Program-made: the position numbers and the translations under genes
Part shown: one piece after another, positions 43,496 through 55,600 of the stretch
Layout: each line of letters opens with the position of its first letter
Numbering within the stretch: the stretch's first letter is position 1
The notes under the pieces: generated by a model
What the model was told of the DNA's origin: nothing
The model's database searches: none
Seen by the model: only the letters and a program-made list of their open reading frames with translations
Source of the DNA: an uncultured Candidatus Binatia bacterium
Lineage (GTDB): Bacteria > Desulfobacterota > Binatia > HRBIN30 > CADEER01
Direction: 5' to 3'
Length of the DNA stretch: 64,000 nt
Assembly (NCBI GenBank): GCA_965216585.1
Contig: CBDCGC010000002.1
Location: 483,160-547,159, forward strand

Positions 43496-45979
43496 ATGGT
43501 GCAGGGTGAGCGGGTGACACGTATTCGCGGTACCGTCTTCCTCTTCTGCTCCGGCCTGGTCACCCTCGTCTACGAGGTTCTGTGGCTGCGCCAGCTCGGT
43601 CATCTCTTCGGCGTCAGCGCCCACGCGACGGCGACCTGCCTGGCCGTCTTCTTCTCCGGTATGGCGCTCGGCCAGGCGATCGCGGCGCGCCGTTGCGCCG
43701 CGCTGGCGTCGCCGCTGCGCACCTACGGGCTGCTCGAAATCGCCGCCGCAGCGGCGGCCTTGCTGGCGCTCTACTTGCCCGACATCTACCGCGCTCTCTA
43801 CGTCCTGCCGGCCGGCGACACCGGTTTCGGCGCCCACGCCACCCGCATCGCTCTGGCGGCCGTCGTCTTGCTGCCGCCGGCGGCGCTGCTCGGTGCGACC
43901 TTGCCGGTGATGGTGGAAGCGGAGACCCGCCACCTCGGCAACGCCCGCTTGCGCGCCACCGCGCTCTACTTCGCCAACACCGCCGGTGGCGTCGCCGGCG
44001 CTTGCCTGGCCGCCTTCTGGCTGGTGCCGGCGCTCGGCTACTACGCCTCCTACCTGGTCGCCGTCATCGCCGGTGCGTCGATCGGCGCCGCCGCCCTGGC
44101 CAGCGCCGGGCAGGCGCCGGCGGCCAAGCCAGTTGGCGCGGCACTGGCGCCGCCGCCGGCATCCCTGCGCTTGTCCGCCGTCGCCTTCGTCTCCGGCGCC
44201 CTCGCCCTGGCGATGGAGGTGATCTGGACGCGCATGCTGGCGCAGGTACTGCACAACTCGGTCTTCTCCTTCGCCGCCGTGCTCGCCGTGTTGCTGCTGG
44301 CTCTGAGCCTCGGCGCCGGCATCGTTCACCTGGCGCTGCGGCGCTGGCCGGCACCGCCGGCCGGCATCCTCGCCGGCCTCTTCGCCGCCGCCGCCGTCGC
44401 CTGCGCCGCCTCGGCGCTGGTCTTTCAGGCGCAGACCGACGGCCTGGCCTATCTGGGTGGCGACGCCGACTGGGCGTCGTACATGGTCGACGTCTTCAGC
44501 CTTGCCGCCGCCGTGATGTTGGTGCCGGGAGCGTTGCTCGGCGCCATCTTGCCGTACGCCGTGGCGCTGCTGGCGGGCGGCGACGCCATGCCCGGCCTGC
44601 GCGTCGGCCGCCTGATCGCCAGCAACACCGCCGGCTCGGTGATCGGCTCGCTGCTCGCCGGCTTCGCACTCCTGCCGGCATTGGACCTGTGGCCCGCCTT
44701 GCTCGCCGTCGCCGCTCTCTACGCCATCGGCGCCGCGCTGTTCACACCGCGACCGGCCGGCGTCGCCGCCGCCGTCGTCGCTCTCTTCCTCCTCTTTGTT
44801 CCGCTCGACCCGCGCGGTCTGCGCCGCGTCGACTTCGACCCGCACGGTGAGACGGTTCTCGAAGTCGTCGACTCGGCGGCCGGCACGGTTGCCGTCGTCC
44901 AGCGCGGCGACGTCGTCGCCCTGCGGCTCAACAACAGCTACACCGTCGGCACCAACGCCAACATCGTCAACGACCGGCGCAAGGCCGATCTACCCCTTCT
45001 CCTGCACCGGCGACCGCGCTCGGTCTTCTTCCTCGGCATGGGTGCCGGCATCACCGCGGCGGCCGCCCTCGACCACCCGCTGAGCAGCATCACGACTTGC
45101 GAGCTGGTACCGGAGATTGCCCGTCTCGCCGCTAAATATCTGCCCGAACAAAGCGGGCGACTGAGCAGCGATCCGCGCTCGCGCGTCGTCGCCGGCGACG
45201 GCCGCCACTATCTGGCGCGCAGCCGCGAGCGCTTCGACGTCATCATCGCCGACCTCTTCGTTCCCTGGCACAGCGGCGCCGGCGCTCTCTACTCGATCGA
45301 GCACTTCGCCAACGTCCGCCAGCGGCTCGGCGACGGCGGCCTCTTCGCCCAGTGGTTGCCGCTCTACCAGATGTCGCGGCAGGAGTTGGAGATCATCGCC
45401 CGTACCATGCTCGAGGTCTTCCCGCGCGTCACCCTGTGGCGCGGCGACCTGCTGCCGCGCTCGCCGGCCATCGCCCTGATCGGCCATGCCGGCGACCAGC
45501 CCCTCGATCTCCGCGACGTCCGCCGCAACGTCCGCCGCCGCATCGGCGAGCACGGCGCCGACGCCGCCGTCACCGACGCCCTGGCGCTGCTCTTCTACGC
45601 CGGCAACCTCAGCCAGGCGCGCCAGCTCTTCGCCGCCGCACCGATCAACAGCGACGATCGCCCGATCATCGAGCACGGCGCGCCGATCACCCAACGGCGC
45701 GTCAAAGCCGGGCAGGGCGCCTGGCTGACCTCGCTCGAGCTGCTGCGCTTCTACGCCGAGCTCGCCGCCGCCGTGCCGCCCGAGCGCGACGCCTTCCTAC
45801 ACAATCTCGACCATCGTCAGATCGAGTATCCGAAAGCGGGGAGGGACCTCTACGCAGCCTCCGTTCACCGCGACACCGGCGATTTTCGCCAGGCCGAGAT
45901 TGCGCTGGAGGCCTTTCGCCAGCGCGTGCCTGCGGAAGTGGTCGAGATCTTTGCCCAGCGAATCCCGTCGATAAAATAG
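43496..45979 (+). CDS. Fused multi-pass membrane domain / spermidine-synthase-like (PABS) protein with C-terminal extension
   Basis: 827 aa. N-terminal ~12 TM helices, then PABS-like core (TCELVPEIARLA...FDVIIADLFVPW) and an ~200-aa C-terminal helical region. Confidence 0.65.
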   Translation: MVQGERVTRIRGTVFLFCSGLVTLVYEVLWLRQLGHLFGVSAHATATCLAVFFSGMALGQAIAARRCAALASPLRTYGLLEIAAAAAALLALYLPDIYRALYVLPAGDTGFGAHATRIALAAVVLLPPAALLGATLPVMVEAETRHLGNARLRATALYFANTAGGVAGACLAAFWLVPALGYYASYLVAVIAGASIGAAALASAGQAPAAKPVGAALAPPPASLRLSAVAFVSGALALAMEVIWTRMLAQVLHNSVFSFAAVLAVLLLALSLGAGIVHLALRRWPAPPAGILAGLFAAAAVACAASALVFQAQTDGLAYLGGDADWASYMVDVFSLAAAVMLVPGALLGAILPYAVALLAGGDAMPGLRVGRLIASNTAGSVIGSLLAGFALLPALDLWPALLAVAALYAIGAALFTPRPAGVAAAVVALFLLFVPLDPRGLRRVDFDPHGETVLEVVDSAAGTVAVVQRGDVVALRLNNSYTVGTNANIVNDRRKADLPLLLHRRPRSVFFLGMGAGITAAAALDHPLSSITTCELVPEIARLAAKYLPEQSGRLSSDPRSRVVAGDGRHYLARSRERFDVIIADLFVPWHSGAGALYSIEHFANVRQRLGDGGLFAQWLPLYQMSRQELEIIARTMLEVFPRVTLWRGDLLPRSPAIALIGHAGDQPLDLRDVRRNVRRRIGEHGADAAVTDALALLFYAGNLSQARQLFAAAPINSDDRPIIEHGAPITQRRVKAGQGAWLTSLELLRFYAELAAAVPPERDAFLHNLDHRQIEYPKAGRDLYAASVHRDTGDFRQAEIALEAFRQRVPAEVVEIFAQRIPSIK

Positions 45980-46216
45980 CACATTGTTTTGTTCAAATGG
46001 TGAGCACTTAGCCCGATAGGGTCCATCATATGACTTGTCCGCAGCTCAACGTTTCCATTGACACTACGCGCCCGACGGGTTCTAAATGGGGAACGTAATC
46101 AAGAAGAGTAGACTGGTCGCGAGCGGTGTATCTCGCACCGGTGTACTGGGGAATCGATGGGGAACTCGATGATGATCAAGGTTTGTAGACCACCGCGCCC
46201 GGCTGCCCGCAAAACC

Positions 46217-48391
46217 ATGGCGTACAAGGCTTTGCTTGCTACATCGCTGTGGACGCTCAGCCTTCTCGGCGAGCCGCTGCTGGCCCACCCGGTGAGCGGG
46301 AATCTGGCGAGCAACTGTCGCATCGTGGCGACCAACTCGAGTATCAGCGTCTATTTGGACGTCGACAACACCACAGAACAGCAAGCCAAGAACCTCACCG
46401 CGGGCCTGCTCGATGGAACTAATATCGGCGACGCCTCGGTTTTCATCAACGTCACTCCAGGTCGACAGACCATCTTGCCCGGCAAGCGCAAGACCTTTCG
46501 CTGGCGTGGCGAGATTTTCGGCAACGGATTTCTCGATCTGACCGTCAGTGTCACCGGCACCTGGGACGACGGGGATCCGGCGACGACGGGTTTGGTGAAC
46601 TGCCCGCGACTGACGGTCGGCGATCCGGCCAGCCTGACGCCGCCGCCGACCAACACGGAGGCGATCCAGCCGACCTTCGGCTCGCAGCCGACGGCGACAC
46701 CGAGTCGCCGCGACCGGCGCGACACGCCGGTGCCGGTCACCCGCGCACCGACCAACACGCGGCGGCCGACGCGCACACCGATTCCGCCGCGACCGACGCG
46801 CACGCGCATCCCGACCAGCACGCGGCGGCCGCCGAGCACACCGATCGAACGCGATACTCCTGGTGACAACCGGCCGACGCGCACTCCCGACATCGGCGGT
46901 GAGCCGACACCGGAACGCCGCGTTCGACCGACCCGCACACCGATCGTCGGCCGCGCGACGCGCACGCCGATTGGCGGGAGGGCGACCCGTACACCGGTGC
47001 CGCAGCGGCCGACCCGCACGCCGATCCAGCTGCGGCCGACGCGCACGCCGCGCGGCGCCAACGTGCTGCCGACCGTGCCGCGCGAAGGGCAGGTTCCGGC
47101 CGAGGTGGTCGGCCGTCTGACCGCCAACTGCAGCCTGCGCCAGACCAACGATCAGATTGCCGTTCGCATGGTCGTGCAAAACACCACCGCCGTCATGGTC
47201 ACCGATCTCGCCGCCAGCTTTCTCGACCTGACGCCGGAGGGCGGTGCGCTCTTCTTCGACCCGACCGGGCCGAGTCCGCGTTCGTACGGCATCTTCGCAC
47301 CGGGCGACAGCGTCGTCTTCGAGTGGGGCGGCCGTATGAACGACGTCGGCGTCATCGGTTTCGCAGCATCCGTCGCCGGTACGTCGCCGGGCGGCAACCC
47401 GGTCATCAGCGGACTCATCGACTGCGGTTTTGGCTCGGGGCCGAACGGCTCCTTCGACAGCTCGCTGTTCACCGGTTCGTGTAGCATCCGCACCGGCCGC
47501 GGCGGCGCCGTCACGCTGCTCATCAACAACCGCAGCGGCGAGCCGATGTCCGAAATCGATCCGCGCTTGATCGACACCTCGTCGACCGGCACGGCGCAGG
47601 TCAATAGCCTGCGCGGTCCGGCGCCGCGGCGCCTGCGCCGGCTCGCCGGCGGTCAAACCCAGGAGTTTCTCTGGGAAGCCGATGTCCTCGGCAGCGGCAA
47701 CGTGAGCATGACGTTCCAGGCCGATGGCACGGTCGAGAGCGGTGACCGCATCAGCACGCCGACGATCACCTGCTCGACCGAGCTGGCGGCCACCGGCGGC
47801 TTGCCCGATCTCTCTGTCGACGAGCTCGATCAGCGCGGCTCCTGGGTCGTCGAAGAGCAGTTCTTCGGCCCCGGTCACTGCGCTCTCTTCGAAGGCTGTG
47901 TCGGCGGCAGCGGGGTGCGCCGGCTGCTCAAGTTCAACACGACGACACCCAACCACGGCCCCGGCGACCTCTTCCTCGGCGATCCGACCAACAATCCGGA
48001 GTTCATCTTCTCCGAGTGCCACCAGCACTTCCACTTCGAGGATTACGCCATCTATCGCCTGCTCGACATGAACGGCAATCAGGTGGCGCAGGGGCACAAG
48101 CAGGCCTTCTGCCTGGTCGACCTGTGGCGCCCGCCGGGCTCCAACGGTGCCCGCAACCCGGGCTTCCCCGACTGCGGTTTTCAGGGCATCAGCGCCGGCT
48201 GGGCCGACGTCTACCACCGCGATCTGGACTGCCAGTGGATCGACATCACCAACGTCCCGGACGGCCGCTACATCCTCGAGGTCCACATCAACCCGGCCCG
48301 GGTGGTGCAGGAATCGAACTACGCGAACAACATCGCGCGCAACGAGGTGTGCATCGGCATCCCAGAGGACGACGGCTGTGCGCGATTCTGA
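46217..48391 (+). CDS. Secreted lysyl oxidase (LOX) family protein: signal peptide, three Cys-bracketed ~110-aa domains, PTRTP-rich linker, C-terminal LOX catalytic domain
   Basis: C-terminal ~170 aa: CHQHFH (48016-48033), GHKQAFCLVD (Lys 48097-48099), VYHRDLDCQWIDITNV (Tyr 48212-48214), ILEVHINP...ESNYANNIARN. These align with animal LOX WEWHSCHQHYH / GHKASFCLED / TYGADIDCQWIDITDV / ILKVSVNP...ESDYTNNVVRC. Start taken at MAYKALLATSLWTLSLL (signal peptide). Confidence 0.8.
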   Translation: MAYKALLATSLWTLSLLGEPLLAHPVSGNLASNCRIVATNSSISVYLDVDNTTEQQAKNLTAGLLDGTNIGDASVFINVTPGRQTILPGKRKTFRWRGEIFGNGFLDLTVSVTGTWDDGDPATTGLVNCPRLTVGDPASLTPPPTNTEAIQPTFGSQPTATPSRRDRRDTPVPVTRAPTNTRRPTRTPIPPRPTRTRIPTSTRRPPSTPIERDTPGDNRPTRTPDIGGEPTPERRVRPTRTPIVGRATRTPIGGRATRTPVPQRPTRTPIQLRPTRTPRGANVLPTVPREGQVPAEVVGRLTANCSLRQTNDQIAVRMVVQNTTAVMVTDLAASFLDLTPEGGALFFDPTGPSPRSYGIFAPGDSVVFEWGGRMNDVGVIGFAASVAGTSPGGNPVISGLIDCGFGSGPNGSFDSSLFTGSCSIRTGRGGAVTLLINNRSGEPMSEIDPRLIDTSSTGTAQVNSLRGPAPRRLRRLAGGQTQEFLWEADVLGSGNVSMTFQADGTVESGDRISTPTITCSTELAATGGLPDLSVDELDQRGSWVVEEQFFGPGHCALFEGCVGGSGVRRLLKFNTTTPNHGPGDLFLGDPTNNPEFIFSECHQHFHFEDYAIYRLLDMNGNQVAQGHKQAFCLVDLWRPPGSNGARNPGFPDCGFQGISAGWADVYHRDLDCQWIDITNVPDGRYILEVHINPARVVQESNYANNIARNEVCIGIPEDDGCARF

Positions 48392-48568
48392 GAAAATACA
48401 CAAATCCGCAGAATTCGGGAGAAAGTTCTTGACTGCGGGAGTGAAAATTGAGTAGTTTGCGACCATCGTTCTATAGTATCGGAATTGGGGGACTAGAGAT
48501 CTTGCGAAAAACTGCTGACATTTTCGAAACTTACGGGAATTCAGCGGCGATTTGCAGGTTCCTAGATC

Positions 48569-48576
48569 AAGGAGGA
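48569..48576 (+). promoter_or_regulatory. Shine-Dalgarno AAGGAGGA, 8 nt upstream of the ATG at 48585
   Basis: Strong consensus RBS within a 190-bp lower-GC intergenic region. Confidence 0.6.
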
Positions 48577-48584
48577 CAGCTCAT

Positions 48585-50105
48585 ATGACGAAACTGCGAT
48601 TGGCTCAGGTCACGCTTTTGAGCGTGGCCATCGCGGTATTCACCGTGGGGAGTGCGGGGGCGCAAGCAGTCCGCACGCGGAAACCCACCAAGACACCACG
48701 TCCGACTCGCACGCAGATCGTAGATCAGGCGAGGACGCGCAAGCCGACCAAGACGTCGCGGCCTACCCGCACGCAAGTGATCGACCAGGCGCGCACCCGC
48801 AAGCCGACCAAGACCTCGCGGCCGACTCGCACGCAGATCGTCAAAGATCTGCGCACGCGCAAGCCGACCAAGACCTCGCGGCCGACTCGCACGCCGATCG
48901 TCAAAGATCTGCGCACCCGCAAGCCGACCAAGACCTCGCGGCCGACCCGTACGCCGATCGTCAAAGATCTGCGCACGCGCAAGCCGACCAAGACCTCGCG
49001 GCCAACTCGTACGCCGATCATCAAGGACGTGCGCACGCGCAAGCCAACCAAGACCTCGCGGCCGACCCGTACGCCGCTGAGTGTCGAGGTGAGGACGCGC
49101 AAGCCGACCAAGACGCAACGGCCGACTCGCACGCCGATTCTCAAAGAGGTGAGGACGCGCAAGCCGACCAAGACCTCGCGGCCGACCCGCACGCCGATCA
49201 GCTTGGATGTACGCACGCGCAAGCCGACCAAGACACAGCGGCCGACCCGTACGCCGATCGTCAAAGATGTGCGCACGCGCAAGCCGACCAAGACGCAGCG
49301 GCCGACTCGTACGCCGATCATCAAAGACGTGCGCACGCGCAAGCCGACCAAGACGATGCGTCCGACTCGTACGCCGATCTCAAACGAGATCCGCACGCGC
49401 AAGCCGACCAAGACCTTGCGGCCGACCCGTACGCCGATTCTCAAAGAGGTGAGGACGCGCAAGCCGACCAAGACCTTGCGGCCGACCCGTACGCCGGTCT
49501 CGAACGAGATTCGCACACGCAAGCCGACCAAGACACTGCGGCCGACTCGTACGCCTTTCATCAAGAACGAGAGAACGCGCAAGCCGACCAAGACCCTGCG
49601 GCCGACTCGTACGCCAGTTTCGAACGAAGCCCGCACGCGCAAGCCGACCAAGACCCTGCGGCCGACCCGTACGCCTGCACCTCTCGAGGCCCGCACGCGC
49701 AAACCGACCAAGACCCTGCGGCCGACTCGCACGCCGGTTCCCGAGGAAGCGCCTGAGGCGTTCGATCCTAGCGACGTGACTGCTCGGTGCTATGCCAGCA
49801 ACAAGGGTGGTCCCGACGGCAAGAAGGATCTCGTCCGCATCCTGATGCAGGTGTCAAACCGCTCTGGCGCGGCCGTCCGAGTTAGCGCCGGTGGAATCGA
49901 CATCAGTGGCTCTGGCAACTATGAGCCAGTTACTGGCGCGGCAGGGAATTCAAAACCCGTCAGAAGCTCGGTGGTCCTCTCTTGGACAATTCGAGTTCGC
50001 GGAACGCTCAGCGTGACGGCTACTGCGAATGCATCGGGCCCGAATGGCGAGCAGATTCCGTTGTCAGCCGACTGCGGGAGTGTGACAGGAGCACCTGCTC
50101 TCTAA
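48585..50105 (+). CDS. Secreted Lys/Arg/Thr/Pro-rich tandem-repeat protein: 18 x 20-aa repeats RTRKPTKTxRPTRTPIxKDV plus a C-terminal Cys-bracketed ~110-aa domain
   Basis: Signal peptide MTKLRLAQVTLLSVAIAVFTVGSAGAQA. Repeats have perfect 60-nt periodicity. C-terminal domain resembles the Cys-bracketed domains of the upstream LOX protein. Confidence 0.75.
   Translation: MTKLRLAQVTLLSVAIAVFTVGSAGAQAVRTRKPTKTPRPTRTQIVDQARTRKPTKTSRPTRTQVIDQARTRKPTKTSRPTRTQIVKDLRTRKPTKTSRPTRTPIVKDLRTRKPTKTSRPTRTPIVKDLRTRKPTKTSRPTRTPIIKDVRTRKPTKTSRPTRTPLSVEVRTRKPTKTQRPTRTPILKEVRTRKPTKTSRPTRTPISLDVRTRKPTKTQRPTRTPIVKDVRTRKPTKTQRPTRTPIIKDVRTRKPTKTMRPTRTPISNEIRTRKPTKTLRPTRTPILKEVRTRKPTKTLRPTRTPVSNEIRTRKPTKTLRPTRTPFIKNERTRKPTKTLRPTRTPVSNEARTRKPTKTLRPTRTPAPLEARTRKPTKTLRPTRTPVPEEAPEAFDPSDVTARCYASNKGGPDGKKDLVRILMQVSNRSGAAVRVSAGGIDISGSGNYEPVTGAAGNSKPVRSSVVLSWTIRVRGTLSVTATANASGPNGEQIPLSADCGSVTGAPAL
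48669..49748 (+). repeat. 18 tandem copies of a 60-bp coding repeat
   Basis: Unit approx cgcacgcgcaagccgaccaagacctcgcggccgac(c/t)cg(c/t)acgccgatcgtcaaagatctg, with third-position and C-terminal codon variation. Confidence 0.9.
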
Positions 50106-50143
50106 AGCGGACTGTTCGAGCTGCCTTCCTTGAGAAGGGTGAA

Positions 50144-50178
50144 AGGGTCAGGCCTTCCGGGTCTGGCCCTTTCTTTTT
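50144..50178 (+). terminator. Putative intrinsic terminator after the repeat-protein gene
   Basis: agggtcaggcc-ttccg-ggtctggccct forms an 11-bp stem (2 G-U pairs) with a 5-nt loop, followed by TTCTTTTT. Confidence 0.45.
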
Positions 50179-50284
50179 GTGGCAGCAGTCGTTCAGAGCA
50201 CGGGCGGGCTTTGTCGACGCCTTCGCTTCTCTTTGTTTCACGCCTTTGTTATCTTCATCGTCAAACTCCAGGCGGGAGCACTCG

Positions 50285-51781
50285 ATGCGCGTACGAATTC
50301 TCGGGCTTTACTCTCTAATTGCGTTTCTCCTGCTGGCGGCGAGCGCGGTGGCGCAGACGCCCAGCGTGACGCCCACCCCGGGGGGCGACTGTTGCTCGAT
50401 TCACCCCGGGCCGAGCTGCGACATTCCGGCTTGTGCGGCCTGTGTCTGCGAAGACCAGGAAGAGCCTCTGTGCTGTGTCGACGGCAGTCCGGAGGGCTGG
50501 GATCGCATCTGTCTCGCCTTTGCCGAGAGTGACGACTGTGCCGAGGTCTGTTTGTGCGGCGAGCCGCCGACGCCGACGCCGACGCCGGGTGGTGACTGCT
50601 GCTTGCCGCACGCCGGTAGCCGCTGCGACGACGAAGCGTGTACGACCTGCGTCTGCGACCGCGACAGCAACTGCTGCACGGGACCTTGGGACGCGTTCTG
50701 CGTCGAGTCGGCGCGTACGGTCGACGAGTGCGCGGGCGAGTGCTCGGATTGTATGCCGCTGCCGACCATCCCGCCGCTGGCGACGCCGACGCCCGGACCT
50801 TGTTGCGAAGGCCGCGATCTCAATCCCGGTTGCGATGAGAGTATGTGCGAGAGCTGCGTCTGCGCCGTCGACGCAAACTGCTGCCTCGACACCTGGGACG
50901 AGCTCTGCGCCGTCATCGCGGTCGAGGAGTGCGCCATCGATTGCGTCTGCGTCGAGGACGGCGACTGCTGTAGCGGACACGACGGTTTTGGTTGCAATGA
51001 CCGGCGTTGTCAGGAGTGTGTCATCGCCCTCGATCCGGAATGTGGCGAGCAGTGGGACGACGACTGCGCATCGGAGGCGCGGCTCGAGTGCGCGCTCGAC
51101 TGCACCTGTGGCGATTGCTGCGCCGAGAATCCGGACGAGGTACCGGGCTGCGGCGTCAAACCCTGCCAAGACTGCGTTTGCGAGATCGACGAGGAGTGCT
51201 GCACGGAGCTGTGGGATGCGCAATGCGACTCGATCGCTCGCGATGAATGCTCGCTCGACTGTCCGTGCTTGAACTGCTGCGAGGAACAGGTGGTTCCGGG
51301 CTGCGGTGAGAAGGAGTGTCAGACCTGTGTCTGCGCCCTCGATGCGAATTGCTGCGATGAAGTATGGGACGGCATCTGTGCCGCCCGCGCCGTCGAAGAG
51401 TGCGACCGCCGCTGCGAGTGCGAGGCCGGCAGCAACTGTTGTATCGCCCGGCCGACCGAGACGGGTTGCGACGAAAGCGCCTGCGAAGCGTGTGTCTGCG
51501 GCGTCGACGATTTCTGCTGCACCGACCTGTGGGATTCCACCTGCTCGGACGAGATCACCGTCAACGAGTGCGCCGCCGAATGCTCATGTGATCCTGGGAG
51601 CTGTGTCGGCGATTGCGATGGCGACGGCGAAGTCTCGATCGGTTCGCTCATCCGCTGCGTCGGCGTCGCCCTCGGCAACTCTCCGGTCAGCGAGTGCCGC
51701 GCCTGCGATGCCGATGGAGACGGCGAGGTCTCGATCGGCGAGCTCATCCAGGCCGTCGGCAACGCCCTCGAGGGCTGCTGA
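50285..51781 (+). CDS. Secreted Cys-rich repeat protein: 7 x ~52-aa 10-Cys repeats plus C-terminal dockerin-like pair
   Basis: Signal peptide MRVRILGLYSLIAFLLLAASAVA. Repeat pattern CC-x6-8-GC-x3-C-x2-CVC-x4-CC-x3-WD-x2-C-x8-EC-x3-C-x-C. PTPTPG linkers. C-terminal CVGDCDGDGEVSIGSLIRCVGVALG...CDADGDGEVSIGELIQAVGNALEGC. Confidence 0.7.
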   Translation: MRVRILGLYSLIAFLLLAASAVAQTPSVTPTPGGDCCSIHPGPSCDIPACAACVCEDQEEPLCCVDGSPEGWDRICLAFAESDDCAEVCLCGEPPTPTPTPGGDCCLPHAGSRCDDEACTTCVCDRDSNCCTGPWDAFCVESARTVDECAGECSDCMPLPTIPPLATPTPGPCCEGRDLNPGCDESMCESCVCAVDANCCLDTWDELCAVIAVEECAIDCVCVEDGDCCSGHDGFGCNDRRCQECVIALDPECGEQWDDDCASEARLECALDCTCGDCCAENPDEVPGCGVKPCQDCVCEIDEECCTELWDAQCDSIARDECSLDCPCLNCCEEQVVPGCGEKECQTCVCALDANCCDEVWDGICAARAVEECDRRCECEAGSNCCIARPTETGCDESACEACVCGVDDFCCTDLWDSTCSDEITVNECAAECSCDPGSCVGDCDGDGEVSIGSLIRCVGVALGNSPVSECRACDADGDGEVSIGELIQAVGNALEGC

Positions 51782-51826: not shown

Positions 51827-52174
51827 AAGGGTGGTGTCGCGCCGCGAGACGTTCGAGGGTTCACCGCCGCAATCCAGATAGCCGGGTTAGCCGATCCCAG
51901 CCCGGTTCACCGGGCTTTCTTCCCTCAGCCGTGGGCTTCAGCCCTCGGCTGTTTGCACGCACACATTCACTCGTTTCCCACCCGCCGCCGAGCGCTGAAG
52001 CGCCCGGCTCAAATCGTCAAAGCCCCTGCGGGGCTGAAACGAAGGGTGGTGTCGCGCCGTCGGGCCGCGAGACGCTCGAGGTTTCACCGCCGCAATCCAG
52101 ATAGCCGGTAGCCGATCCCAGCCCGGTTCACCGGGCTTTCTTCCCTCAGCCGTGGGCTTCAGCCCTCGGCTGTT
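51827..52174. repeat. Two ~127-132-bp direct repeats (51827-51953, 52043-52174) in a convergent intergenic region
   Basis: aagggtggtgtcgcgccg...ttcaccgccgcaatccagatagccgg..cccggttcaccgggctttcttccctcagccgtgggcttcagccctcggctgttt. Contains the cccggttcaccggg palindrome. Confidence 0.7.
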
Positions 52175-53451: not shown

Positions 53452-53517
53452 CAGCGTCAACCCCAACGTTTTCCGGGAGGGTAACGGCTTCGACCTGGCT
53501 TGTCCACGGGAAAGAAT

Positions 53518-53648
53518 GGGAGGGCGAGTCGCCTGACGAGCCGCCGGTCCCCCGACCCCAGCGGGAGGGCGAGTCGCCTGACGAGCCGCCGGTCCCCCGA
53601 CCCCAGCGGGAGGGCGAGTCGCCTGACGAGCCGCCGGTCCCCCAGAGC
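53518..53648. repeat. REP array, 3 x 46 bp, upstream of the RAYT gene
   Basis: gggagggcgagtcgcctgacgagccgccggtcccccgaccccagcg x2 plus a truncated third copy. Core GGCGAGTCGCC is near-palindromic. Confidence 0.8.
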
Positions 53649-53736
53649 CGTCGACCACCCCGGAACCATCACAACATCGAATGTCAACTCCCCATGCCGC
53701 CAGCGCAATCCGACCGGCACGCGTACCCTGACCCAC

Positions 53737-54207
53737 ATGCCGCATTCATCCCGCAAACGTCCCGCGGCATGGAACCCGCCGGAAAGCCTTACCGACTACA
53801 TCGTGTTCCTGACGGTATGCACGAAGCACCGCAAAGCCGCACTTGCGGACACCAAAGTTCACGCTGAGCTCGTGCGAATTTGGATGGACCAGCCATCTTG
53901 GCTGGTGGGCCGGTACGTCCTCATGCCCGATCACGTGCACTTGTTCTGCTCGCCCTCGATCTCGACAACGGTGCCGCTACCCGGTTGGGTTCGGTACTGG
54001 AAATCGCACCTGGCGCGTTCCGGTGTTTGCGGAACGCAGGTATGGCAGTCGGGATTCTGGGATACGCGGATACGCAGCGACGAGAGTTTCGAGGCGAAGT
54101 GGAGCTACGTTAGAGACAATCCGGTTCGCGCCGGGCTTTGCCGAAATGCAGACGAGTGGCCTTTTCAGGGGGAGATTTATCCTCTGAAGCGGCGAGAGGC
54201 GGATTGA
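53737..54207 (+). CDS. REP-associated tyrosine transposase (RAYT; IS200/IS605 TnpA-like HUH enzyme)
   Basis: 156 aa. HUH motif LMPDHVHLF and C-terminal catalytic Tyr context WSYVRDNPVRAGL. Flanked on both sides by REP arrays sharing a 24-nt core in inverted orientation. Confidence 0.7.
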   Translation: MPHSSRKRPAAWNPPESLTDYIVFLTVCTKHRKAALADTKVHAELVRIWMDQPSWLVGRYVLMPDHVHLFCSPSISTTVPLPGWVRYWKSHLARSGVCGTQVWQSGFWDTRIRSDESFEAKWSYVRDNPVRAGLCRNADEWPFQGEIYPLKRREAD

Positions 54208-54237
54208 ATTCGAAACCGTGCCGCGCGGCGTGGTCGG

Positions 54238-54780
54238 TTGGGGTGTGTTCGGGTCGCCGGGTGGCTCGTCAGGCGACTCGCCCTCCCAAGACAAGAATGA
54301 CGGGGGTGTGTTCGGGTCGCCGGGTGGCTCGTCAGGCGACTCGCCCTCCCAAGACAAGAATGACGGGGGTGTGTTCGGGTCGCCGGGTGGCTCGTCTGGC
54401 GACTCGCCCTCCCAAGACAAGAATGACGGGGGTGTGTTCGGGTCGCCGGGTGGCTCGTCAGGCGACTCGCCCTCCCAAGACAAGAATGACGGGGGTTGTT
54501 CGGGTCGCCGGGTGGCTCGTCAGGCGACTCGCCCTCCCAAGACAAGAATGACGGGGGTTGTTTGGGTCGCCGGGTGGCTCGTCAGGCGACTCGCCCTCCC
54601 AAGACAAGAATGACGGGGGTTGTTTGGGTCGCCGGGTGGCTCGTCAGGCGACTCGTCCTCCCAAGACAAGAATGACGGGGGTTGTTCGGGTCGCCGGGTG
54701 GCTCGTCAGGCGACTCGCCCTCCCAAGACAAGAATGACGGGGGTTGTTCGGGTCGCCGGGTGGCTCGTCAGGCGACTCGC
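54238..54780. repeat. REP array, ~9 x 62 bp, downstream of the RAYT gene
   Basis: gggggtgtgttcgggtcgccgggtggctcgtcaggcgactcgccctcccaagacaagaatgac repeated head-to-tail. Contains ggctcgtcaggcgactcgccctcc, the reverse complement of the upstream array core. No unique spacers. Confidence 0.85.
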
Positions 54781-54844
54781 TGTCCGGTGGCTCCGGGCGC
54801 TTGGCTGCACCTGTGGCCCAATCGTGATACGAAAGGCGTCTGGG

Positions 54845-55600
54845 ATGTGTACTTTGGCCGTATACACAGGGGTATGCGACTCCACGCCGTTACTACTCGC
54901 CGCCAACCGCGACGAGTTCCTGAAGCGGCCAACGGCGCCGCCCGGCGTCTTGTCGGTCGATCCCTGGGTGGTCGGCGGTCGCGACCTCGAGGCGGGCGGT
55001 ACCTGGCTGGGGGTCAACCAGCACGGCTTGGTCGTTGCCTTGCTCAACCGCCGCTCGGCGAGTGGACCGGATCCAAGCAGGGAATCGCGCGGTTTGCTGT
55101 GTCTGCGCGCATTGCAGCAAAACGATCTCGCAGGCGTCGAGGCCCTGCTCGAATCCGAGCAGGGCGATCGCTTCAACAGCTTTACGCTGGTCGCGGCGAC
55201 GCGCCGGCGCGCCCTGGTGGCGGTGCAGGCCGGCGCGTCCATCGCGGTCCGGCCATTGCCTGCCGGCGTCCACATGGTCACCAACTTTGAGGTGAACGAC
55301 GCCGAGTGCCCGCGGATCGCCGGCGCCAGGCAACGCTTTGCCGATGTCGATGTCGGTGGCGAAGAAGGGCAGCGCCTGCACCACCTGCGCGAGATCCTGT
55401 CGACGCACGTGGATGGAGCAGCCGCCGGCATGGAGGACGACAGCTCGCTGTGTATCCACCGCGGACCCTACGGCACCCGCTCTTCTTCGCTGATCGCCCT
55501 GGCGGCCGAATCGACGAGCTATTGGCACGCCGACGGGCCACCCTGCCGCACCGGCTTCTGCCAGGTGGAGCTACCCGACAACGCGACGACGATCGTCTAA
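54845..55600 (+). CDS. NRDE-family (TANGO2-like) protein
   Basis: Start MCTLAVYTG. Hallmark motif LLLAANRDEF. The 75-aa N-terminal extension of the ORF lies in the REP array and is rejected. Confidence 0.65.
   Translation: MCTLAVYTGVCDSTPLLLAANRDEFLKRPTAPPGVLSVDPWVVGGRDLEAGGTWLGVNQHGLVVALLNRRSASGPDPSRESRGLLCLRALQQNDLAGVEALLESEQGDRFNSFTLVAATRRRALVAVQAGASIAVRPLPAGVHMVTNFEVNDAECPRIAGARQRFADVDVGGEEGQRLHHLREILSTHVDGAAAGMEDDSSLCIHRGPYGTRSSSLIALAAESTSYWHADGPPCRTGFCQVELPDNATTIV

What the first reader, a model, noticed from the sequence alone, without database searches (positions are those of the whole stretch)
48585..50105. 18 perfect-period Lys-rich 20-aa repeats: candidate dedicated LOX substrate or polycationic matrix protein
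Protein is signal peptide + 18 x (RTRKPTKT-x-RPTRTP-I/V-x-K/N-D/E-V/L) + ~110-aa Cys-bracketed domain. The DNA repeat (48669-49748) keeps an exact 60-nt period with no indels. Only the C-terminal 4-5 residues of each unit vary, along with synonymous third positions. This implies purifying selection on the RTRKPTKTxRPTRTP core, not recent slippage alone. Two Lys per unit in an invariant Pro/Thr/Arg context resembles the KP/KA cross-linking motifs of elastin. The gene has its own strong SD (AAGGAGGA, 48569-48576) and a terminator-like hairpin right after it (50144-50178). That is consistent with high, separately tuned expression, as expected for a structural substrate rather than an enzyme.
Basis: partly seen in the sequence, partly recalled or inferred. 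Interest (0 to 1): 0.85.

Follow-up and report, generated by a model that had tools for sequence, protein, structure and literature searches.

The report
Lysine-bearing repeat protein partnered with bacterial LOX
A secreted, floppy, strongly positively charged protein made of 18 near-identical 20-residue units, each with a fixed lysine, always sits next to (or is fused to) a bacterial lysyl oxidase, which makes it the first concrete candidate for what a bacterial lysyl oxidase acts on.

Summary
ORF 48585-50105 (+) encodes a signal peptide, 18 exact 20-aa units (48672-49751, 60-nt period, no indels) and a Cys-bracketed beta-sandwich. The unit core is under strong purifying selection (dN/dS 0.07, against about 0.7-1.2 in spacer positions).

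The link to lysyl oxidase (LOX) is strongly supported:
- The upstream gene is a LOX with its catalytic residues intact.
- All 11 Binatia-type LOX loci examined carry this repeat gene directly downstream. None of 70 other LOX loci, mostly Myxococcota, does.
- A sister lineage fuses the same repeats and domain to the N-terminus of LOX.
- The C-terminal domain is homologous to the three non-catalytic domains of the adjacent LOX.

Across 165 units from 11 species, the consensus is R-T-R-K-P-T-[K/S/N]-T-x-R-P-T-[R/S]-T-P-I-x-x-E-D. One lysine per unit is invariant, and K and R almost never swap. AlphaFold2 predicts the array as disordered. Net charge is +100. The next conserved gene encodes an 88-Cys protein of charge -88.

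The substrate role itself is inferred, not shown. Rival readings are an LOX-propeptide-like targeting tail and an elaborated Pro/Thr linker. The family matches no Pfam, NCBIfam or PHROGs model, and gene callers missed it in the two loci where I saw their calls. I found no reported native substrate for any prokaryotic LOX.

The parts
46157..48391 (+). Lysyl oxidase gene (744 aa). Layout: signal peptide, beta-sandwich D1, Lys-free RPTRTP linker, D2, D3, catalytic domain.
   Evidence: Pfam PF01186 E=4e-36. The catalytic domain matches human LOXL2 (5ZE3) at E=8.5e-32, with HxHxH, the LTQ Lys (GHKQAFCL) and the Tyr (ADVY) aligned.
46622..47104 (+). Inter-domain linker of the LOX. It carries six RPTRTP-type motifs, with 0 Lys and 30 Arg.
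   Evidence: Linkers of three orthologous LOX have 0 K in 176-214 aa with 27-32 R.
48429..48477 (+). Promoter-like elements upstream of the repeat gene. TTGACT (48429-48434) is conserved in 10 of 11 species. The scan tool's hit is TTGAGT-18-TATAGT at 48448-48477.
   Evidence: Intergenic alignment and consensus scan. Function is inferred only.
48569..48576 (+). Shine-Dalgarno sequence AAGGAGGA, 8 nt before the ATG. GGGAGGA is conserved in orthologs.
48585..50105 (+). Repeat-protein gene (506 aa). The mature protein has net charge +100 and pI 12.
48585..48662 (+). Predicted Sec signal peptide (MTKLRLAQVTLLSVAIAVFTVGSAGA|QA).
   Evidence: Read from the sequence. AlphaFold2 gives a helix at residues 2-21. 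The cleavage site is inferred from the AxA rule.
48672..49751 (+). 18 units of 20 aa: R-T-R-K-P-T-K-T-x-R-P-T-R-T-P-[IV]-x-x-[DE]-x. Predicted intrinsically disordered.
   Evidence: pLDDT is 35-45 with no secondary structure. Cross-species consensus from 165 units.
49752..50102 (+). C-terminal region with a Cys-bracketed (C402 to C497) seven-strand Ig-like beta-sandwich of the CARDB/DUF11 type.
   Evidence: AlphaFold2 pLDDT 86. hhalign to LOX D1, D2 and D3 gives 98.0%, 99.3% and 97.6% probability. A profile finds 1109 cluster representatives, many of them giant multi-copy proteins, some matching CARDB. Fold matches are generic only.
50141..50181 (+). Intrinsic-terminator-like hairpin (15 bp) plus T-run. 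An equivalent hairpin follows the ortholog in L001.
50285..51781 (+). Conserved third gene: a secreted Cys-rich protein with 88 Cys, net charge -88 and only 2 Lys. Its C-terminus is dockerin/EF-hand-like.

Best explanation
SHOWN. The gene encodes a Sec-exported protein in three parts: a signal peptide, a 360-residue polycationic tail predicted to be intrinsically disordered, and a CARDB-like beta-sandwich.
- The tail is built from 18 copies of a 20-residue unit. Its core (RTRKPT.T.RPTRTP) is held constant by selection.
- The beta-sandwich is homologous to the non-catalytic domains of the neighbouring lysyl oxidase.
- The gene is the middle member of a three-gene secreted module conserved in Binatia-type bacteria: LOX, then the Lys-bearing repeat protein, then a polyanionic Cys-rich protein.
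- In a sister lineage, the repeats and the domain are fused to the N-terminus of LOX.

INFERRED (most likely mechanism). The repeat protein is the dedicated macromolecular partner of the LOX, and most probably its lysine-donor substrate or scaffold.
- The flexible cationic tail presents one fixed lysine every 20 residues (two to three per unit in this genome) to an acidic LOX catalytic domain (net -14, pI 4.7).
- LOX converts these lysines to allysine aldehydes.
- The aldehydes condense with remaining lysines or other allysines, tying the protein into a covalently cross-linked extracellular or envelope-associated matrix.
- The shared beta-sandwich domain, and electrostatic pairing with the -88 Cys-rich protein, would bring the components together before curing.
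For: - Gene order: LOX is immediately upstream on the same strand and its catalytic residues are conserved.
- Forward test: 11 of 11 Binatia-type LOX loci (LOX catalytic domain 58-77% identical to the window's), plus L003, have the repeat gene directly downstream. None of 70 other LOX loci, mostly Myxococcota, does.
- Reverse test: all 5 metagenome arrays of this type with upstream sequence have LOX upstream.
- Rosetta-stone fusion: P0001-P0007 have the layout signal peptide, repeats, same domain, LOX.
- Domain homology to LOX D1-D3.
- One Lys per unit is kept in every species. K-P-T recurs at exact 20-aa spacing with only one unit lacking it (L013).
- K and R are not interchangeable. Positions 1, 3 and 10 are R, with K in 0, 0 and 2 of 165 units. 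This argues for a lysine-specific role rather than charge alone.
- The same RPTRTP theme inside LOX itself is Lys-free (0 K against about 30 R, in 4 proteins).
- Core dN/dS is 0.07. Core identity between species is 84%, against 22% for spacer positions.
- The tail is predicted disordered, hence accessible.
- Mammalian LOX enzymes act on a range of cationic proteins such as histone H1 and bFGF, producing cross-linked oligomers (PMC10078733).
- An archaeal LOX oxidises Lys-containing polypeptides (PMC6452851).
- A conserved polycation/polyanion pair is present in 7 species.
Against: - There is no biochemical evidence; oxidation and cross-links are inferred.
- Synteny over the whole UvrB-to-VWA block is conserved in this clade, so adjacency alone is weak. 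The fusion and the shared domain carry most of the weight.
- In the fused homologs, the first Lys is often replaced and the second is the conserved one, so no single Lys position is universal across both lineages.
- Invariant Thr and Arg are not explained by a substrate role.
- The low Lys content of LOX (1.1%) and of the Cys-rich protein (0.7%) is not exceptional for this genome. About 10 of 44 crude ORFs have 1.2% K or less.
- Generic [KR]PT[KR]TP linkers occur in unrelated proteins.
- One RTRKPTKT-type array (P0008) sits in a non-LOX protein with no LOX in the 1.6 kb upstream.
Confidence: 0.45

Rival explanations
1. Non-substrate targeting or regulatory tail, analogous to the LOX propeptide. 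The cationic disordered array binds an anionic polymer, such as exopolysaccharide, LPS, eDNA, a mineral surface, or the -88 Cys-rich protein. Through the shared beta-sandwich it localises or tunes LOX, while LOX acts on something else (small amines, another protein, or antibiotics).
For: - In P0001-P0007, the array occupies the position of a pro-region N-terminal to the catalytic domain.
- Human LOX propeptide is elongated and disordered, and its Arg residues bind glycosaminoglycans (PMC6078952).
- A conserved oppositely charged partner is encoded next door.
- An archaeal LOX has relaxed specificity for many small amines and aminoglycosides (PMC6452851).
Against: - Pure electrostatic binding would tolerate K/R exchange, which is essentially absent.
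- Net charge per unit varies threefold between species (+1.7 to +5.4).
- Here the array is a separate gene with no catalytic domain to target, and L003 has both a fused and a free copy.
Confidence: 0.27
2. Elaborated Pro/Thr-rich spacer, or a mucin-like O-glycosylated brush. On this reading the array is an extended, protease-resistant or glycosylated stalk that merely holds the CARDB-like domain away from something. Its conservation would reflect PPII geometry or glycosylation sequons.
For: - Thr at unit positions 6, 8, 12 and 14 and Pro at 5, 11 and 15 are invariant or nearly so.
- The same RPTRTP theme serves as a true inter-domain linker in LOX.
- Six-residue [KR]PT[KR]TP linkers are common in unrelated secreted proteins.
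Against: - The array is a free N-terminal tail, not a connector between two domains.
- It has a strict 20-aa period without indels across 11 species, with fixed K and R positions. This is unlike generic linkers, which show free K/R exchange and a 6-aa period.
- There is no glycosyltransferase in the conserved cassette.
- Ser does not replace Thr at the invariant positions.
Confidence: 0.15
3. Multi-copy precursor of short cationic Pro/Arg/Thr-rich peptides. Each unit would be a conserved core plus an acidic spacer, released by proteolysis, as in apidaecin-type antimicrobial peptide precursors (comparison from my own knowledge).
For: Unit architecture: a 15-residue invariant core followed by a variable spacer ending in D/E.
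Against: - There is no protease, maturation enzyme or exporter in the cassette.
- The array is fused in-frame to LOX in relatives.
- A folded C-terminal domain is conserved.
- The spacer has no conserved cleavage motif.
Confidence: 0.04
4. Artefact: a non-coding or mis-assembled tandem repeat, or the true gene is the antisense ORF 48725-49732.
For: - Assemblies break in this array: an N-gap in L001 and a contig end in L086.
- A long antisense ORF exists, and a crude GC3-based caller prefers it.
- Gene callers chose antisense ORFs in L003.
Against: - The sense frame has a Shine-Dalgarno sequence and a signal peptide, and it continues in-frame into a confidently folded domain.
- The same frame is fused to LOX in 7 proteins.
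- The array is collinear in an independent strain and present in more than 15 independent assemblies.
Confidence: 0.02

Closest known systems
Animal LOX with tropoelastin KP-type cross-linking domains
   Same: A secreted Cu/LTQ lysyl oxidase is paired with a repetitive, flexible protein that offers lysines in a Pro-rich context. In this genome the motif is K-P-T-K, resembling elastin K-P-x-K (the elastin motif is recalled from my own knowledge).
   Different: There is no sequence homology and there are no hydrophobic VPGVG-type domains. Arg and Thr dominate. The second Lys of the pair is not conserved in orthologs. Enzyme and partner are operon-like neighbours or fused, and they share a beta-sandwich domain. 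Cross-links have not been demonstrated.
LOX propeptide (LOX-PP) of mammalian pro-LOX
   Same: It is basic, Arg-rich, elongated and intrinsically disordered, and it binds polyanions (PMC6078952). In homologs P0001-P0007 the array lies N-terminal to the catalytic domain, like a pro-region.
   Different: In the window it is a separate gene. It is perfectly periodic, carries a conserved Lys, and ends in a folded domain. No homology and no BMP-1-type processing site are evident.
Generic bacterial Pro/Thr-rich [KR]PT[KR]TP inter-domain linkers
   Same: They share the short sequence theme (RPTRTP, KPTKTP). The LOX's own linker is of this kind.
   Different: Generic linkers have a 6-aa period, free K/R exchange and variable length, and they connect two domains. 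This array has a fixed 20-aa unit, position-specific K and R, and no indels across species, and it is a free N-terminal tail.
CARDB/DUF11-type Ig-like domains of bacterial surface proteins
   Same: The C-terminal domain is a seven-strand beta-sandwich. Its profile finds more than 1000 cluster representatives, many with tens of tandem copies, and some of these match Pfam CARDB.
   Different: The window's domain matches no Pfam model at threshold. It is Cys-bracketed and occurs singly after a disordered array. Its binding partner is unknown.
Characterised prokaryotic LOX (Haloterrigena turkmenica HTU-LOX)
   Same: Same catalytic family. It oxidises Lys-containing polypeptides in vitro (PMC6452851).
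   Different: HTU-LOX has no known native substrate or partner gene, and its function is described as cryptic. Here a conserved candidate partner is encoded alongside.

Membership tests
Lysyl_oxidase (PF01186), for the neighbouring enzyme 46157-48391 | Pfam model match above the gathering score | tested here: met
   125 bits against a cut-off of 20.4, E=4e-36.
Lysyl_oxidase (PF01186), for the neighbouring enzyme 46157-48391 | Cu-binding HxHxH, plus the Lys and Tyr that form the LTQ cofactor | tested here: met
   The alignment to LOXL2 (5ZE3) pairs CHQHFH with CHRHYH, GHKQAFCL with GHKASFCL, and ADVYHRDLDCQW with DMYRHDIDCQW.
LOX protein substrate (elastin or collagen type) | Peptidyl lysine is oxidised to allysine by LOX, followed by cross-links | not testable with these tools
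   This needs biochemistry or mass spectrometry.
LOX protein substrate (elastin or collagen type) | Accessible lysines in a conserved, cationic or Pro-rich context | tested here: met
   Lys is present at unit position 4 in essentially every unit of 11 species. The region is predicted disordered and carries net positive charge.
LOX protein substrate (elastin or collagen type) | Sequence homology or domain plan of tropoelastin (alternating hydrophobic and cross-linking domains) | tested here: not met
   No significant Pfam, NCBIfam or PHROGs match for the repeat protein. The repeat protein was not searched against PDB sequences. The unit contains no hydrophobic block.
LOX propeptide-like pro-region | Lies N-terminal to the catalytic domain in one polypeptide | tested here: not met
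   It is a separate gene in the window, followed by its own terminator and then the next gene. The feature is met only in homologs P0001-P0007.
LOX propeptide-like pro-region | Basic, Arg-rich and intrinsically disordered | tested here: met
   R79 and K49, pI 12, pLDDT 35-45.
Generic Pro/Thr-rich inter-domain linker | Connects two folded domains, with length and sequence loosely constrained | tested here: not met
   There is no domain N-terminal to the array. It has a strict 20-aa period, and its core is 84% identical between species.
CARDB-like Ig domain (C-terminal domain) | Match to the Pfam CARDB model or a specific structural relative | tested here: inconclusive
Multi-core peptide (RiPP or AMP) precursor | Adjacent maturation protease, modifying enzymes or exporter, plus a conserved cleavage motif | tested here: not met
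   Neighbours are UvrB, a coiled-coil protein, TANGO2, AAA, VWA and similar. The spacer is variable.

The most novel reading that the evidence does not exclude
Binatia-type bacteria carry a self-contained, three-component extracellular cross-linking kit:
- a lysyl oxidase;
- a polycationic, disordered 'lysine ruler' protein with one reactive Lys every 20 residues;
- a polyanionic, disulfide-knotted partner protein.

The two oppositely charged proteins would associate electrostatically, in a coacervate-like manner, and LOX would then cure the complex covalently through allysine chemistry. That would make a prokaryotic counterpart of the animal LOX-elastin system. It would be the first native substrate reported for any prokaryotic LOX.
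Probability: 0.3. Interest if true: 0.85.

Novelty: new variant of a known kind. Interest (0 to 1): 0.66.

Why it matters
The function of lysyl oxidases in bacteria and archaea is an acknowledged open question. Their function is called 'enigmatic' and 'cryptic' in PMC6452851, and the question is raised explicitly in PMC4448552. I found no reported native protein substrate.

This locus supplies a specific and cheap experiment: co-express the LOX and its neighbour, then look for BAPN-sensitive allysine and cross-links at the RTRKPT lysine. If the result is positive, enzymatic lysine-aldehyde cross-linking of a dedicated matrix protein would not be only an animal invention. That bears on the evolutionary origin of extracellular-matrix chemistry.

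It would also provide a simple, genetically encoded pair (a periodic Lys-bearing polymer plus its curing enzyme) of interest for biomaterials.

Practically, the family is invisible in current annotation. Gene callers picked antisense ORFs in L003 and left the stretch uncalled in L001, whose assembly breaks inside the array. It is therefore absent from protein databases.

Tried and rejected
- **Polyamine or silaffin-like lysine modification by the upstream fused MFS/spermidine-synthase gene (43496-45979; NF037959).** Rejected as part of the system. That gene lies between UvrB and LOX only in this window and is absent from all 11 other loci.
- **Lys-depletion of LOX and the Cys-rich protein as evidence of 'self-protection'.** This is weak. 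K% of 0.7-1.1 is in the low tail, but about 10 of 44 crude ORFs share it. The Lys-free RPTRTP linkers remain suggestive.
- **Direct BLASTP between the C-terminal domain and LOX.** It found nothing. Profile-profile comparison was needed.
- **Rfam search on the long conserved 5' leader.** No family matched.
- **Analogous Lys-rich repeat genes next to the other (mostly Myxococcota) LOX loci.** None found. The AEKAAK-rich array in L041 looks like an ordinary coiled-coil segment of an unrelated neighbouring protein; this was judged by eye and no domain search was run.
- **Literature searches for bacterial LOX function, Binatia, or LOX-linked repeat proteins.** Nothing relevant beyond PMC4448552 and PMC6452851. 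The two 'cysteine-rich repeat' papers were unrelated.
- **dN/dS as a way to choose between the sense and antisense frames.** Not informative, because the two frames share wobble positions. The frame was settled by the signal peptide, the in-frame domain and the fusions.
Full report
**1. The observation**

The + strand ORF from ATG 48585 to the stop at 50105 encodes 506 aa. It has three parts: a Sec-type signal peptide (MTKLRLAQVTLLSVAIAVFTVGSAGA|QA), 18 head-to-tail units of exactly 20 aa (48672-49751), and a 117-aa C-terminal region.

- The DNA period is exactly 60 nt with no indels. TRF scores are 801-1129.
- Unit positions 1-8 and 10-14 (RTRKPTKT, RPTRT) are invariant in protein. They use several synonymous codons, for example CGC/AGG/AGA at position 1, ACT/ACC at 12 and CGC/CGT at 13.
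- Nei-Gojobori estimates among units are dS 0.37 and dN 0.026 (ratio 0.07) for the core. The ratio is about 1.2 for position 9 and 0.70 for positions 16-20.
- The Shine-Dalgarno sequence AAGGAGGA (48569-48576) and a 15-bp terminator-like hairpin with a T-run (50141-50181) are present.

Position 9 also varies, and position 15 is Q in the first three units.

**2. Copy number**

Units are 61-96% identical to each other. Only units 3-5 are near-identical.

A contig from a strain about 97% identical (L086) is collinear with the last nine units. One unit there has been converted to its neighbour's sequence. That contig ends inside the array. The ortholog in GCA_902826395.1 has a 100-N gap inside its array.

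The architecture is real. The exact count of 18 lacks independent confirmation.

**3. Reading frame**

A 335-aa antisense ORF (48725-49732) shares wobble positions with the sense frame and fools simple gene callers. In L003 the public gene calls are antisense ORFs, and in L001 the stretch was left uncalled.

The sense frame is the real one for four reasons:
- It has the Shine-Dalgarno sequence and the signal peptide.
- It continues into a confidently folded domain.
- It is the frame fused to LOX in seven database proteins.
- AlphaFold2 on the whole protein gives a signal helix (residues 2-21), then residues 24 to about 385 without secondary structure at pLDDT 35-45, then a beta-sandwich at pLDDT 75-91.

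**4. Surroundings**

The gene immediately upstream (46157-48391, +) is a lysyl oxidase.
- It matches Pfam PF01186 at E=4e-36.
- It matches human LOXL2 (5ZE3) at E=8.5e-32, with the HxHxH copper site and the LTQ Lys and Tyr aligned.
- Its layout is signal peptide, D1, a 161-aa RPTRTP-type linker, D2, D3, catalytic domain.
- The RPTRTP motif occurs nowhere else in the 64-kb window.

The gene downstream (50285-51781, +) encodes a secreted protein with 88 Cys, net charge -88 and only 2 Lys. Its C-terminus is dockerin/EF-hand-like.

The other neighbours are housekeeping-type genes: UvrB, a coiled-coil lipoprotein, a Y1-transposase-like gene, TANGO2, an AAA ATPase, VWA_CoxE, BFN, TPR and rhodanese. 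No glycosyltransferase, peptidase or exporter is present.

**5. Relatives of the repeat protein**

A database search with the repeat protein returned only 15 proteins. The best seven (P0001-P0007) are LOX proteins whose N-terminal two-thirds are the same kind of array plus the same Cys-bracketed domain. Enzyme and repeat module therefore occur as one polypeptide in a sister lineage.

Profile-profile comparison shows that the C-terminal domain of the window protein is homologous to LOX domains D1, D2 and D3 (98.0%, 99.3% and 97.6% probability). It is closest to D2, the domain that follows the LOX's own RPTRTP linker.

The domain is a seven-strand Ig-like sandwich (pLDDT 86). A profile of it finds 1109 cluster representatives. 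Many are giant proteins with up to 59 tandem copies, and some match Pfam CARDB/DUF11. Structure searches give only generic sandwiches. This fits an extracellular or surface location but does not indicate a specific ligand.

**6. Linkage to LOX**

A scan of one genome per GTDB species with the LOX catalytic domain gave 80 loci.
- The ten closest loci are MAGs labelled Candidatus Binatia, 'Deltaproteobacteria' or uncultured bacterium, with catalytic domains 58-77% identical to the window's. All ten have a same-strand ORF with the 20-aa array directly downstream of LOX.
- None of the 70 more distant loci, mostly Myxococcota, has it.
- tblastn shows a conserved order: UvrB, LOX, repeat protein, Cys-rich protein, (-) coiled-coil, TANGO2, AAA, VWA.
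- The locus with the fused LOX (L003) additionally has a free 785-aa repeat protein downstream, with about 35 units and no C-terminal domain.

As a reverse test, I scanned metagenome contigs with a degenerate DNA pattern for K-P-T-x-T-x-R-P-T-R-T-P.
- All five arrays of this type that have upstream sequence have LOX directly upstream.
- Three more begin at a contig end.

Two caveats apply. The whole syntenic block is conserved in this clade, so adjacency alone is weak evidence. The fusion and the shared domain and motif are the stronger arguments. There is also one exception: P0008 carries RTRKPTKT-type units between unrelated domains, with no LOX in the 1.6 kb upstream.

**7. What is conserved in the unit**

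From 165 units of 11 species, the consensus is R-T-R-K-P-T-[K 48%/S 37%/N 10%]-T-x-R-P-T-[R 70%/S 25%]-T-P-[I/V]-x-x-[E/D]-[D/E].

- Successive K-P-T triplets are exactly 20 residues apart in all species. Only one unit (in L013) lacks the triplet. In practice every unit has this lysine.
- K and R do not exchange. Positions 1, 3 and 10 are R, with K in 0, 0 and 2 of 165 units. Position 4 is never R, although AAG to AGG is a single transition.
- Core positions are 84% identical between species (90% within arrays). Spacer positions are 22% identical between species and 40% within arrays. Spacers thus evolve in concert within an array while the core is held by selection.
- The second lysine and the extreme charge are features of this genome. 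Lys per unit ranges from 1.0 to 2.5, and net charge per unit from +1.7 to +5.4.
- In the fused lineage it is the second Lys (PTKT) that is the better conserved.
- The RPTRTP-type linkers inside four LOX proteins contain no lysine among about 30 arginines.

**8. Charge relations**

| Component | Net charge | Notes |
|---|---|---|
| Mature repeat protein | +100 | K49, R79, pI 12 |
| LOX catalytic domain | -14 | pI 4.7 |
| Cys-rich protein | -88 | 88 Cys, 2 Lys |

In seven species, the Cys-rich protein is -56 to -89 with 1-2 Lys, and the repeat protein (measured in six of those seven loci, plus the window) is +16 to +100.

The low Lys content of LOX and of the Cys-rich protein is not unusual for this genome. 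I give it little weight.

**9. Interpretation**

Shown: the protein is a secreted, disordered, Lys-bearing periodic polymer. It is evolutionarily and physically tied to a catalytically intact LOX, and it is part of a conserved three-gene secreted module.

Inferred: I consider it most likely (0.45) that it is the LOX's lysine-donor substrate or scaffold, oxidised to allysine and cross-linked. Three points support this:
- The lysine specificity of the conserved position.
- The Lys-free state of the enzyme's own equivalent linker.
- The known preference of LOX enzymes for cationic protein substrates, which yields cross-linked oligomers (PMC10078733), together with the activity of an archaeal LOX on Lys-containing polypeptides (PMC6452851).

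Rival readings and my confidence in each:
- A propeptide-like targeting or polyanion-binding tail, 0.27. The comparison is with LOX-PP, which is disordered, Arg-rich and binds glycosaminoglycans (PMC6078952).
- An elaborated or glycosylated Pro/Thr spacer, 0.15. Generic [KR]PT[KR]TP linkers exist in unrelated proteins, but they have a 6-aa period and free K/R exchange.
- A multi-copy peptide precursor, 0.04.
- An artefact, 0.02.

**10. Novelty**

The repeat protein matches no Pfam, NCBIfam or PHROGs model. Its orthologs are largely missing from protein databases because they are mis-called. The literature I could search describes prokaryotic LOX function as unknown and names no native substrate (PMC4448552, PMC6452851).

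The concept of LOX plus a dedicated Lys-bearing matrix protein is known from animals. I therefore rate this a new variant of a known kind. It is of real interest because it makes an open question directly testable.

Noticed in passing
window 49752-50102 (and 50285 to about 51100), compared with L086: Most of the 8.5 kb shared with a near-identical strain is about 100% identical. The beta-sandwich domain of the repeat protein is only about 62-84% identical (dS 1.12, dN 0.25, against dS 0.02-0.04 in flanking genes). The 5' half of the Cys-rich gene is 94-96% identical. This looks like allelic replacement by recombination centred on a surface-exposed domain.
   Followed up: partly
window 48725-49732 (-); L003 12511-14693; L001 7797-9412: The array has long antisense ORFs. 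Public gene calls in L003 picked antisense ORFs, and in L001 the stretch was left uncalled. As a result the standalone repeat proteins are almost absent from protein databases; only LOX-fused forms were found.
   Followed up: yes
window 50285-51781 (+): This gene encodes a secreted protein with 88 Cys in roughly nine CC...WD...C modules, net charge -88 and a dockerin/EF-hand-like C-terminus (DCDGDGEVSIGSLI...DADGDGEVSIGELI). It is conserved next to the repeat gene in 8 of the 11 comparison loci (absent from the fused-LOX locus L003; two other loci end before that position), and homologs carry PF26780. Its function is unknown.
   Followed up: partly
window 43496-45979 (+): A fused MFS/spermidine-synthase-like membrane protein (NF037959, PF01564) is inserted between UvrB and LOX in this genome only. 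The other 11 loci have UvrB directly before LOX.
   Followed up: yes
window 53500-54850: A Y1_Tnp (IS200-like/RAYT-like) ORF lies at 53500-54207 and carries three 45-nt direct repeats (53518-53652). It is followed by an array of at least 9 copies of a 62-63-nt repeat (54177-54847), which overlaps the annotated start of the TANGO2-like ORF. This is possibly a REP/RAYT-type element.
   Followed up: partly
window 51988-52035 (+): Sub-threshold Rfam match to Acido-Lenti-1 sRNA (28.5 bits, gathering score 37, E=0.0019) in the intergenic region after the Cys-rich gene.
   Followed up: no
window 48392-48584 and orthologous intergenic regions: The leader before the repeat gene is about 150-190 nt long. 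It has a conserved CTTGACT box (10 of 11 species), a conserved GGGGGAC motif and a GGGAGGA Shine-Dalgarno sequence. No Rfam family matches it.
   Followed up: partly
L003 12203-14560 (+): In the genome whose LOX already carries fused repeats, a second free repeat protein is encoded downstream. It is 785 aa with about 35 units of PTRTPK(I/V)xEPNxRPPTKEPR, is more charge-balanced, and lacks the C-terminal domain.
   Followed up: partly
L085 1634-3328 (P0008): This is the only RTRKPTKT/RPTRTP-type array found outside a LOX context. It sits between an N-terminal Cys-rich region and an unrelated C-terminal domain, downstream of an NTP_transf_2/NTase_sub_bind pair.
   Followed up: partly
P0136-P0155 (profile search hits): The Cys-bracketed beta-sandwich domain recurs up to 59 times in tandem in giant proteins of 3000-6900 aa, presumably surface adhesin-like proteins.
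   Followed up: no
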